DNA of 64,000 bases, taken from IMG/VR virus record IMGVR_UViG_3300027858_000541. One strand, written 5' to 3'. The notes under the pieces were generated by a model. That model searched no databases. It was given only the letters and a program-made list of their open reading frames with translations, and had not been told where the DNA came from. The translations under genes and the position numbers were made by a program. The stretch comes from a virus. Shown in pieces: positions 25,375 through 26,716 of this stretch. Position 1 is the first letter of the stretch; each line of letters starts with the position of its first letter.

Positions 25375-26716
25375 ATTAACATAAAACAGGTTGTTATTCA
25401 AAATGAAAAGCTTGTATTTATAACCGCATTACTATTAATTTAAATAGAACATAAGTTATTTAAAGCGTGATACTGTTAGACCTCACCTATTAAGATTAAA
25501 CAAGCTGTTATTTAAAATGCATTCCAGTTTTAGAGTTCGCCAATTAAGCTTAAACAAGTTGTTATTTAAATTATAGTATAGTGTTACCACGCCTTTTAAC
25601 GATAAAACAAACTGTTATTTTAAAATGAATGTAAATGCATGGTGTACAACATACCTATTAGGATTAAACAATCTGTTATTTAAAATACCCTTCCATTAGT
25701 ACATTTAAAATTAAGTTAGAACTAATCGTTATTGAAATCATCTTGCTTTACTCTAAAGCACAAATTTAAGCTAGAACCTTTGTTATTAAAATAGCATCAC
25801 CGAAATTTTCATTGTTAGAAGTTACAGTAGAACTTCAAGTTATTAAAAATCCTACACCTCCATAGGGTCATGTTAAGATAAAACAAGTTGTTATTTCAAT
25901 TACCTTCCAGTTTGAATACATTAACTTAAGATAGAACAAAAGTTATTTAAAATATATACGGATGGCATAAGCGCTTTTCGAGATAAATTTAAAATAGAAC
26001 TAATTGTTATTTCAATTACCAGCCATTGTACACTTGAACGACGTTAATTTAGATAGAACAAATGTTATTTAAAATACAGACTTATGGAGTAAGTACTCTT
26101 CAAAATAAGTTTAAAATAGAACGAGTTGTTATTTAAAACTATGCTACAATTCAGTGCTTTTAGCTGAGTATTTATTAATATAGAACCATAGGTTATTGAA
26201 ACTTTGTAGTCCTTTTTTTCTTTTGACAATTATGGTCGAACCACAGGTTATTAAAATTCAAGTGGCAATAAAACTTTTTTATCAAATAATTTAACGATAG
26301 TACAACATGTTATTCAAAGGATGAACCGATAAAACGCAAAATCTTATCATCTAATTAAAATGGAACCCACGAGTTATTTAAATGAACCGATAAAACTTAA
26401 AATCTTTTCGCCTAATTAAAATGGAACCCACGAGTTATTTTAAATTGGTAAATAAGGATGCTTCCAATACCTTTACCTTTTCAATCGGACAGATTGTTAT
26501 GTATAAGAAATAATAAAAATCAAAAACATTATTAAGATAGAACTAAGTGTTATTACAATTACCCATGGTTCCTAGAATACTTACGATTGAATAATCATTG
26601 TTCGAATTAGCCTATATGCTTACAGTCAAATTAAGATAGAACTTTAAGAGTTATTTAAAATATGCGCCCCCGGGTCTTAGAAAAATTAAAATAGAACAGT
26701 AATTTGTTATCGAAAA
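25375..26716 (+). CRISPR. Highly degenerate CRISPR-like array (23 clear repeats plus 1 very decayed) inside the cas operon
   Basis: Consensus TTAAGATAGAAC-N4-8-GTTATT(T)AAA(A)T, about 29-30 nt. GTTAT anchors at 25393, 25455, 25507, 25561, 25614, 25675, 25728, 25782, 25839, 25890, 25942, 26006, 26064, 26128, 26192, 26247, 26309, 26373, 26434, 26496, 26549, (26600), 26650, 26706. Some ends are canonical ATTGAAAT/ATTGAAAC. No ORFs in the region. Confidence 0.88.

What the first reader, a model, noticed from the sequence alone, without database searches (positions are those of the whole stretch)
25375..26716. Hyper-degenerate array: almost every repeat differs, but the AAC...GTT stem and ATT(T/G)AAA 3' handle are kept
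Seen: 23-24 units of about 29-30 nt, with only repeats 18 and 19 near-identical. The loop between AAC and GTT varies freely in sequence and length (4-8 nt: ATAA, AAGCT, CTTT, CATAG, CCACGA, TTTAAGA...). The AAC/GTT pair and the GTTATT tail are near-invariant, and units 7 and 15 end in canonical ATTGAAAT and ATTGAAAC. Inference: conservation of a base-paired core despite sequence drift suggests selection for Cas6 processing rather than simple decay. Cas1-Cas2 copying gives identical repeats, so this array appears to be maintained by some other route.
Basis: partly seen in the sequence, partly recalled or inferred. Interest (0 to 1): 0.9.

Follow-up and report, generated by a model that had tools for sequence, protein, structure and literature searches.

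The report
CRISPR array with all-different repeats
A CRISPR array sits inside the cas operon of a roughly 523-kb phage- or plasmid-like element, and almost every repeat differs; only the bases that the guide-RNA processing and loading proteins should need are kept, so it works as a natural map of what those proteins require.

Summary
Window 25375-26716 holds 23 regularly spaced units, 22 of them distinct, plus one decayed unit. The consensus is ATTAAGATAGAAC, a 4-8 nt loop, then GTTATTTAAAA.

The array lies between cas7 and cas5 of a cas6-cas8-cas7-[array]-cas5-cas3 operon. No leader is visible and no Cas1 was found in the window.

Variation is strongly non-uniform. Ten of 24 non-loop positions never vary (0.87 expected), while 21 of 23 loops differ. 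The AAC/GTT mini-stem sits exactly 8 nt from the repeat end and shows compensatory changes.

A ~97% identical relative in another metagenome has 0/105 changes at conserved repeat positions. It has 14/283 changes at loop, variable and spacer positions. All five cas genes are under purifying selection.

A model built only from relatives' repeats recovers 21 of the 23 units as its top hits.

The same embedded-array architecture recurs in a Bacillota chromosome and on several phage-like contigs. Their repeats range from uniform to loop-polymorphic.

Best reading: a static, adaptation-less but still selected array. No special maintenance route is needed. Processing itself is untested, no targets were found, and spacers drift at a near-neutral rate.

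An earlier unchecked note of this scan (e1-370604) describes a similar all-different-repeat array in a giant phage with a type I-E system.

The parts
22145..22171 (+). Terminator-like hairpin that ends the upstream unit
   Evidence: 11-pair stem followed by a T run. It is kept in the 97% relative, with changes confined to the centre of the hairpin.
22239..22267 (+). Best promoter-like site, the likely operon promoter
   Evidence: TTGACT-17-TATATT with an upstream TG, 10 of 12 matches. Identical in the relative. This is a consensus match only.
22300..22971 (+). cas6 (223 aa)
   Evidence: Pfam Cas_Cas6_C 4.7e-09; PADLOC Cas6b 1.4e-19. Against the relative: 8 synonymous and 5 non-synonymous codon changes.
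22965..24299 (+). cas8-like large subunit (444 aa)
   Evidence: PADLOC Cas8a model 1.7e-51; no Pfam hit. 15 synonymous and 5 non-synonymous changes over the part compared.
24300..25334 (+). cas7 (DevR/Csa2 family, 344 aa)
   Evidence: Pfam DevR 2.5e-39. 21 synonymous and 8 non-synonymous changes.
25375..26716 (+). CRISPR array of 23 units (22 distinct repeats) with spacers of 22-35 nt
26321..26445 (+). 61-nt tandem duplication (units 18 and 19), the only near-identical repeat pair
   Evidence: TRF period 61, 90% matches. Contigs of the relative X2 skip 61 nt here (26337 to 26399), so it holds one copy.
26580..26610 (+). Probable decayed 24th unit inside the 70-nt 'spacer'
   Evidence: Reads CTTACGATTGAAT-AATCATT-GTTCGAATTAG, so the tail motif is lost. 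Neither covariance model detects it.
26685..26716 (+). Last repeat, which abuts the cas5 ribosome-binding site
   Evidence: The repeat ends 22 nt before the cas5 ATG, and AAAGGAG lies between them.
26739..27389 (+). cas5 (216 aa)
   Evidence: PADLOC Cas5a 8.2e-12. Homologues sit between the array and cas3 in relatives. 13 synonymous and 6 non-synonymous changes.
27443..29536 (+). cas3, helicase first and HD nuclease domain at the C terminus (697 aa)
   Evidence: Pfam and NCBIfam cas3_core 6.2e-34, with Cas3_HD at residues 537-620. 41 synonymous and 8 non-synonymous changes. Walker A reads GSGKF where eight relatives have GSGKT.

Best explanation
This is a genuine type I (I-A/I-B-like) CRISPR array. 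It is carried inside the cas operon of a large mobile element that has no spacer-acquisition module in view.

Inferred mechanism: one transcript from the promoter at about 22240 runs through cas6-cas8-cas7, the array, and cas5-cas3. Cas6 recognises the 5' TTA..AT part of each repeat and a protein-stabilised 3-4 bp AAC/GTT mini-hairpin. It cuts at the hairpin's 3' base. This gives crRNAs with an 8-nt ATTnAAAn 5' handle, and it also cuts the cas5-cas3 message free.

Because no Cas1-Cas2 copying renews the repeats, each repeat evolves as its own locus. Positions that Cas6 and the effector complex need are held by purifying selection. The loop and about nine other positions have drifted to saturation.

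Recombination between identical repeats probably removes look-alike pairs, so the survivors are mutually dissimilar.

Shown: the anatomy, the conservation pattern, the covariation, selection on the cas genes, the static gene and unit order, and family membership of the repeats. Inferred: transcription, Cas6 cleavage, loading of crRNAs, interference, and the recombination sieve.
For: - Anatomy and cas identities.
- Non-uniform conservation: 10 of 24 positions invariant against 0.87 expected.
- The stem's 3' end lies exactly 8 nt from the repeat end as defined by relatives with uniform repeats. This matches the cleavage rule for Cas6 enzymes (PMC5965381).
- Pairing: core stem 98.9% paired with a C-G to U-A double change. 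The fourth pair is AU 11, UA 5, CG 2, GU 1. No shuffle of 500 reached the observed score, and slid controls fell to 32-60%. Within the window alone the fourth pair forms in 14 of 23 units (P=0.0027).
- In the related array of L003 the 4-bp stem is invariant in 40 repeats while the 3-nt loop varies.
- Against the 97% relative: 0/105 changes at conserved repeat positions versus 14/283 elsewhere (Fisher P=0.014).
- cas genes against that relative: 98 synonymous and 32 non-synonymous codon changes.
- The relative's array covers the same stretch, and the units I could retrieve (1-4, 21-23) are orthologous, despite 8.4% divergence at fourfold sites. Two unit-level differences were seen, one of them at the only identical repeat pair.
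- The longest exact identity between any other two repeats is 16 nt or less.
- No terminator lies in or after the array.
Against: - No RNA data exist for this element, so transcription and processing are unproven.
- Spacers diverge at 4.9%, against 8.4% at fourfold sites. About nine small indels lie in the array. So constraint on the spacers could not be shown.
- No protospacer was found in phage, plasmid or IMG/VR collections, in the window, or in the related loci.
- Half the spacers are 22-28 nt where relatives have 35-38 nt.
- Cas3 has F in place of the Walker A threonine.
- Single repeats barely fold on their own, so base-specific reading rather than pairing could explain part of the conservation.
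- Only 64 kb of about 523 kb was visible, so cas1 and cas2 may lie elsewhere on the element.
Confidence: 0.62

Rival explanations
1. Non-repetitiveness is itself selected. The element cannot re-acquire spacers and probably replicates with active recombination. Variants whose repeats differ in the functionally free centre therefore lose fewer spacers and are favoured. Repeat diversity would then be an adaptation, a natural recombination-proof array, and not a by-product of drift.
For: - No two repeats share more than 16 nt of exact identity except units 18 and 19. That pair is exactly where a close relative differs in copy number.
- Variation is centred on the loop, which splits the repeat into two short identical arms.
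- In sibling elements L003 and L019, shared units carry 4/203 changes in their repeats and 1/236 in their spacers.
- Heterogeneous arrays were seen on the ~520-kb elements and on L023/L024. The bacterial-genome loci (L001, L006, L007) and three metagenome contigs of unknown kind (L008, L011, L013) are mostly uniform.
Against: - The repeat-versus-spacer difference is not significant.
- Drift combined with passive loss of identical pairs gives the same picture.
- L021, on a phage-like contig, has uniform repeats.
- No recombination rates are known for this element.
Confidence: 0.25
2. The array is a relic in slow decay. The system no longer interferes with targets, and the array survives only because it lies inside an operon that is still used.
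For: - Spacers evolve at a rate not distinguishable from neutral, and they carry indels.
- One unit has already decayed.
- Many spacers are shortened.
- No targets were found.
- Cas3 Walker A reads GSGKF.
- There is no leader.
Against: - Decay would hit all repeat positions alike. Instead 10 positions are invariant in 23 units and unchanged in the relative.
- Only 1 of 24 units is degraded.
- cas6 and the four other cas genes are under purifying selection. That is hard to explain if no crRNA is used.
Confidence: 0.12
3. The array is a mosaic. Units with already different repeats were imported by recombination from several related arrays of co-infecting elements or hosts, and did not diverge in place.
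For: - Arrays of sibling elements L003 and L019 share internal blocks in different contexts, and one spacer occurs twice.
- The spread of repeat variants in the window equals the spread among arrays of different organisms. For example, unit 21 has the loop of L013 and unit 23 has the tail of L003 array 1.
- Spacers are mostly unrelated to one another.
Against: - No window spacer is shared with any related array held here.
- The 97% relative carries the same units, where they could be retrieved, with the same repeat variants.
- The conserved arms are short (13 nt or less), which gives little homology for exchange.
Confidence: 0.08
4. The repeats act as RNA decoys, like viral repeat mimics. They would soak up or reprogram the Cas6 or Cascade of different hosts, and their diversity would match several host repeat types.
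For: - The element is phage-like.
- The repeat variants span the diversity of the family.
- Viral mini-arrays and solitary repeats are known; this rests on my own knowledge of the RNA anti-CRISPR literature and was not checked here.
Against: - A complete cas6-cas8-cas7-cas5-cas3 set under purifying selection flanks the array, and the array sits inside that operon.
- Twenty-two different spacers are not needed for a decoy.
Confidence: 0.04

Closest known systems
Type I-B CRISPR-Cas (cas6b-cas8b-cas7-cas5-cas3-cas4-cas1-cas2), e.g. Clostridium thermocellum, Methanococcus maripaludis, Haloferax
   Same: The order of the effector genes is the same. Cas7 is of the DevR/Cst2-Csa2 family and Cas6 is Cas6b-like. 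Repeats are 29-30 nt, weakly structured and A/T-rich, and end in ATTGAAA(N)-type tails. An 8-nt 5' handle is expected (PMC5965381).
   Different: The array lies between cas7 and cas5. No cas1, cas2 or cas4 and no leader are seen. Cas3 has its HD domain at the C terminus. The large subunit and Cas5 score best with I-A models. Nearly every repeat is different.
The same embedded-array variant with uniform repeats: Anoxybacteroides (Anoxybacillus) tepidamans PS2 locus (L001/L005)
   Same: The architecture cas6-cas8-cas7-[array]-cas5-cas3 is the same, Cas7 is 53% identical, and the repeat family is the same (GTTTAGATTGAACTTAGAGTTATTAAAAG).
   Different: Twelve of 13 repeats are identical and spacers are 35-37 nt. 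A leader of about 180 nt carries a long inverted repeat. A Cas1 gene lies elsewhere in that genome.
Arrays of the ~517-kb and ~528-kb metagenomic elements (L003, L019, L020)
   Same: Element size is similar, the array is embedded, and adjacent adaptation genes are absent. Repeats are polymorphic mainly in the loop while the stem is invariant. There are some short spacers and one strongly degenerate second array.
   Different: The repeats nearest the leader are identical and the arrays differ between siblings. Spacer turnover therefore continues there, whereas the window's array looks static and is far more diverged.
CRISPR-Cas systems of huge phages (Al-Shayeb et al. 2020, PMC7162821)
   Same: The systems are carried on very large phage or plasmid-like genomes, and almost all lack Cas1, Cas2 and Cas4.
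   Different: That paper describes compact arrays with a median of six repeats. In the passages I read it does not describe arrays whose repeats all differ or arrays inside the operon. Whether this element is a phage is not established.
Engineered non-repetitive guide arrays (ELSA; Reis et al. 2019, from my own knowledge, not checked here)
   Same: Functionally neutral positions of the guide scaffold are varied so that no long identical stretch remains.
   Different: Those are synthetic Cas9 sgRNA arrays. This one is natural, type I, and of unproven function.

Membership tests
CRISPR array (class 1) | Regularly spaced direct repeats separated by unique spacers | tested here: met
   There are 23 units at 51-64 nt spacing. 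Mean spacer-to-spacer similarity equals the shuffled null, and only two pairs are alike.
CRISPR array (class 1) | Repeats (near-)identical within the array | tested here: not met
   Twenty-two of 23 repeats are distinct and the median longest shared stretch is 7 nt. Tandem Repeats Finder misses the array.
CRISPR array (class 1) | Adjacent cas effector genes on the same strand | tested here: met
   cas6, cas8, cas7, cas5 and cas3 flank the array on the + strand.
CRISPR array (class 1) | Leader and cas1-cas2 for spacer acquisition | tested here: not met
   Only 40 nt separate the cas7 stop from the first repeat. No ORF of 250 aa or more in the window matches Cas1. The rest of the ~523-kb element could not be searched.
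CRISPR array (class 1) | Processed crRNAs with an 8-nt 5' handle | not testable with these tools
   No RNA run holds the element. Only the geometry fits: the stem's 3' end is 8 nt from the repeat end.
Repeat family of the cas6-cas8-cas7-cas5-cas3 clade (L001, L003, L006, L007, L013, L021, L023) | Match to a sequence-and-structure model of that clade's repeats | tested here: met
   Model R2 was built without any window sequence. It places 21 of 23 units as the top 21 hits in 64 kb.
Type I-B | cas6b-cas8b-cas7-cas5-cas3 with an N-terminal HD domain on Cas3, plus cas4-cas1-cas2 | tested here: inconclusive
   Gene order, Cas6b and Cas7 fit. However, Cas8 and Cas5 score best with I-A models, Cas3 has a C-terminal HD domain, and no adaptation genes were seen.
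Type I-A | Cas8a, a separate small subunit Csa5 (Cas11), and split cas3' and cas3'' | tested here: not met
   The Cas8a model hits at 1.7e-51 and Cas5a at 8e-12. But there is no separate small-subunit ORF in the operon, and Cas3 is a single helicase-HD protein.
CreA-like regulatory mini-arrays inside cas operons | One or two degenerate repeats with a spacer partly matching a nearby promoter | tested here: not met
   There are 23 units, and no spacer matches the rest of the window better than shuffled controls do.
Viral solitary repeat units / RNA anti-CRISPR decoys | Repeat mimics without their own cas effector genes | tested here: not met
   A full effector gene set under purifying selection surrounds the array.

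The most novel reading that the evidence does not exclude
Large mobile elements that cannot acquire spacers evolve recombination-proof CRISPR arrays. Repeats are driven apart at every position that Cas6 and Cascade do not read, so a fixed arsenal of guides is never lost. In this lineage that arsenal may work with an ATPase-impaired Cas3 and shortened spacers, as a binding or nicking device and not a shredder. Many cas operons on huge phages that appear to lack arrays would then carry arrays that repeat finders cannot see.
Probability: 0.2. Interest if true: 0.8.

Novelty: new variant of a known kind. Interest (0 to 1): 0.62.

Why it matters
- The 23 natural repeat variants, together with the related arrays, act as a ready-made mutational scan. 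They suggest the minimal recognition code of this Cas6/Cascade: TTA..AT, a 3-4 bp stem of almost any loop placed 8 nt from the repeat end, and ATTnAAAn. That code can be tested directly in vitro.
- An array can apparently stay under selection after losing the repeat identity that defines CRISPR for all detection software. Arrays of this kind are probably under-counted on phages and plasmids.
- A graded series now exists within one clade: uniform repeats, loop-polymorphic repeats, and all-different repeats. This series allows a test of whether repeat divergence protects fixed spacer sets from recombination. That question also bears on the design of stable multiplex guide arrays.

Tried and rejected
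- DNA and protein searches of the operon against the phage and plasmid collections found no relatives.
- The array searched against phages and plasmids at E up to 10 gave only A/T-rich chance matches.
- Three exact spacer cores searched in IMG/VR gave nothing.
- Spacers compared with the rest of the window did no better than shuffles.
- Spacers compared with all fetched loci, and relatives' spacers compared with the window, gave no targeting.
- Rfam found no family in the window.
- Cas7 searches in IMG/VR found nothing.
- The whole element and the L003 and L016 records could not be searched for cas1.
- The idea that the array grew by duplication and divergence of a few units was rejected. Only spacer pairs 17/18 and 11/13 are alike, and mean similarity equals the null.
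- Repeats acting as internal sigma-70 promoters (TTAAGA-N16/17-TAAAAT) was rejected, because such sites are no more frequent than in shuffles.
- A stable RNA hairpin was rejected. Minimum free energy is 0 to -3.8 kcal/mol, and the AAC/GTT stem appears in the predicted fold of only about six units.
- Literature searches for embedded or all-different-repeat arrays found nothing specific.
- The per-site difference table from read laying was truncated before the array. The central units 5-20 of the relative could therefore be compared only in summary.

Full report
**What is there**

The stretch 25375-26716 holds 23 units anchored by GTTAT at 51-64 nt spacing. Parsed against the repeats of relatives, each unit has three parts. 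First comes a 13-nt 5' part with consensus ATTAAGATAGAAC. Then comes a loop of 4-8 nt. Last comes GTT followed by an 8-nt tail, with consensus ATTTAAAA.

Twenty-two of the 23 repeats are distinct, and 21 of the 23 loops are distinct. Units 18 and 19 are the only near-identical pair. They belong to a 61-nt tandem duplication.

One 101-nt interval contains a decayed unit at about 26580-26610, which has lost the tail motif. Spacers are 22-35 nt. About half are 22-28 nt.

**Context**

The array lies inside a cas operon on the + strand:
- cas6 at 22300-22971
- a cas8-like large subunit at 22965-24299
- cas7 of the DevR/Csa2 family at 24300-25334
- the array
- cas5 at 26739-27389
- cas3 at 27443-29536, with the helicase first and the HD nuclease domain at the C terminus

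A terminator-like hairpin and the best promoter-like site in the region lie just upstream of cas6. No terminator-like site lies in or after the array. Only 40 nt separate cas7 from the first repeat. The last repeat ends 22 nt before the cas5 start codon.

No ORF of 250 aa or more in the 64 kb matches Cas1.

The window comes from a 522,790-bp contig of a marine metagenome. It has low G+C and mostly one coding strand. It carries phage-family proteins of unknown function, a Rok-like repressor, a spore-protease-like protein, a DNA ligase, a UvrD helicase and a flap endonuclease. The element is therefore a huge phage or megaplasmid of a spore-forming Bacillota host. Which of the two it is remains unsettled.

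**Is the pattern more than chance, and is it constraint?**

Several independent tests agree.
- Among the 24 non-loop positions, 10 never deviate in 23 units. If the 78 deviations were spread evenly, 0.87 such positions are expected (P<1e-5).
- Per-position variability inside this array correlates with variability among the consensus repeats of nine related arrays (Spearman 0.62, P=0.001). The same positions are free or fixed within this array and across the family.
- A covariance model built only from the repeats of other loci ranks 21 of the 23 units as its top 21 hits in the window. All are on the + strand and full length.
- A model that includes the window's units finds none elsewhere in the 64 kb.

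**The stem**

The AAC/GTT core is paired in 98.9% of cells across the window's units and seven related arrays. Two related arrays carry AAT/ATT in its place, which is a C-G to U-A double change.

A fourth pair, made by the first and last loop bases, is present in 73% of cells. It occurs as AU, UA, CG or GU. No shuffle of 500 reached the observed covariation score, and slid controls drop to 32-60% paired. In the window alone the fourth pair forms in 14 of 23 units (permutation P=0.0027).

In the 40-repeat array of L003, the 4-bp stem AACT/AGTT is invariant while the 3-nt loop takes about a dozen forms.

The stem's 3' end is exactly 8 nt from the repeat end, as that end is defined by relatives with uniform repeats. 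Cas6 enzymes of types I-A, I-B and III cut at this distance (PMC5965381).

On their own the repeats hardly fold. Minimum free energy is 0 to -3.8 kcal/mol. Any hairpin must therefore be held by protein.

**Orthologue test**

Two other metagenomes, one soil (X2) and one sludge (X3), hold relatives about 97% identical over the stretch laid. From X2 I recovered the contigs that cover units 1-4 and 21-23.

| Site class | Changes |
|---|---|
| Conserved repeat positions | 0 of 105 |
| Loops and variable repeat positions | 5 of 101, plus one loop insertion |
| Spacers | 9 of 182 |

Conserved positions against all the rest give Fisher P=0.014.

The five cas genes show 98 synonymous and 32 non-synonymous codon changes. 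Divergence at fourfold-degenerate sites is 8.4%.

The relative's contigs cover the same stretch, and the retrieved units are orthologous. Two unit-level differences were seen. X2 has a single copy where the window has the 18/19 duplication. X2 and X3 replace 77 nt around unit 15 with 18 other letters. About nine small indels also lie in the array, and none lie in the cas ORFs.

The retrieved end units (1-4 and 21-23) have orthologous spacers, so no turnover shows at either end. The array appears static.

**The family**

Cas7 and Cas5 homologues of 43-55% identity lead to the same cas6-cas8-cas7-[array]-cas5-cas3 architecture in several places:
- Anoxybacteroides tepidamans
- two sibling metagenomic elements of 517 kb and 528 kb
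- further phage-like contigs of 25-160 kb that carry SPbeta-type genes

More distant relatives place the array after the operon. None has adjacent cas1, cas2 or cas4. Two of the bacterial genomes have no Cas1 at all, and A. tepidamans has one elsewhere in its genome.

Repeat uniformity runs along a gradient:
- 12 of 13 identical in A. tepidamans
- mostly identical in five other loci
- loop-polymorphic on the 517-kb and 528-kb elements, with 29 variants in 40 repeats and the first 4-6 repeats identical
- strongly degenerate in the second array of L003 and in the window

The sibling arrays L003 and L019 are mosaics with internal shared blocks. Spacer turnover therefore continues in that lineage, unlike in the window's lineage.

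**Reading**

The simplest account is a static array that is no longer renewed by Cas1-Cas2. Its repeats evolve independently under the constraints set by Cas6 and the effector complex.

The longest exact identity between any two repeats is 16 nt or less, except for the 18/19 pair. That pair is exactly the site of a copy-number difference in the close relative. This fits passive or selected loss of look-alike repeats by recombination. It is an inference from one case.

I found no need for a separate maintenance route.

**Caveats**

- Function is not shown. No RNA run holds the element.
- No target was found anywhere I could search.
- Spacers change at 4.9%, against 8.4% at fourfold sites. That is not distinguishable from neutral, and they accept indels.
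- Many spacers are about 12 nt shorter than the family norm of 35-38 nt.
- Cas3 carries GSGKF where eight relatives have GSGKT. The 97% relative shares the change, and the gene is still under purifying selection.

Together these points leave room for an altered mode of action, such as binding or nicking instead of processive degradation. They also leave room for a system on its way out. The repeat conservation argues against simple decay.

**Novelty**

The parts are known:
- Type I effector genes are well described.
- Adaptation-less systems on huge phages are reported (PMC7162821).
- Weakly structured I-A and I-B repeats with 8-nt handles are reported (PMC5965381).

I could not find described, in four literature searches, either an array embedded between cas7 and cas5 or an array with essentially no two repeats alike that is still constrained. 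An earlier, unchecked note of this scan reports a comparable all-different-repeat array in a giant phage with a type I-E system (e1-370604). The pattern may therefore be general for large elements. I rate it a new variant of a known kind.

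Noticed in passing
window 27443-29536 (Cas3 residues 46-53): The Walker A motif reads GCGSGKFE. Eight relatives from eight other arrays all have GSGKTE, and the 97% relative shares the F. The gene still shows 41 synonymous against 8 non-synonymous changes. The ATPase may be impaired or altered.
   Followed up: partly
L001 4640-4760; L003 1505-1625 and 11060-11170: Relatives have a leader of about 120-180 nt between cas7 and the array. 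It is framed by a long inverted repeat (CTGCAGTGAACCTC ... GAGGTTCACTGCAAA). The window lacks this element entirely.
   Followed up: no
L003 1-16563: The 517-kb element carries two complete copies of the system in tandem. The first array is strongly degenerate and is interrupted by a small ORF at 2220-2396.
   Followed up: no
L003 11190-13770 versus L019 3551-6001: Sibling elements with an identical Cas5 have mosaic arrays. Shared spacer blocks are internal, one spacer occurs twice in L003, and a 23-nt spacer is conserved in both.
   Followed up: partly
genomes behind L006 and L007: No Cas1 match was found in either whole genome, yet their arrays have 16 mostly identical repeats.
   Followed up: no
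window 26709-26741: If Cas6 cuts the last repeat, the cas5-cas3 message would start with a crRNA-type 5' handle (ATCGAAAA) about 15 nt upstream of its ribosome-binding site. This could allow feedback by Cas5/Cas7 binding, but that is pure inference.
   Followed up: no
window 22145-22171 versus L025: The terminator hairpin upstream of cas6 differs from the relative only in the centre of the hairpin, while the outer stem arms and the promoter are identical.
   Followed up: no
window 32093-32854, 3210-4028 and 4961-7741: The window encodes a Rok-like repressor with a winged-helix domain, a protein with a GmrSD N-terminal domain, and a 926-aa UvrD-type helicase with an extra 300-residue N-terminal region.
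   Followed up: no
window 25901, 26017, 26560 and 25686: Four spacers (6, 10, 12 and 21) begin with TACC. Three of them follow the unusual tail variants ATTTCAAT or ATTACAAT. This hints at old unit duplications or a shared target flank, but pairwise similarity is only marginal.
   Followed up: partly
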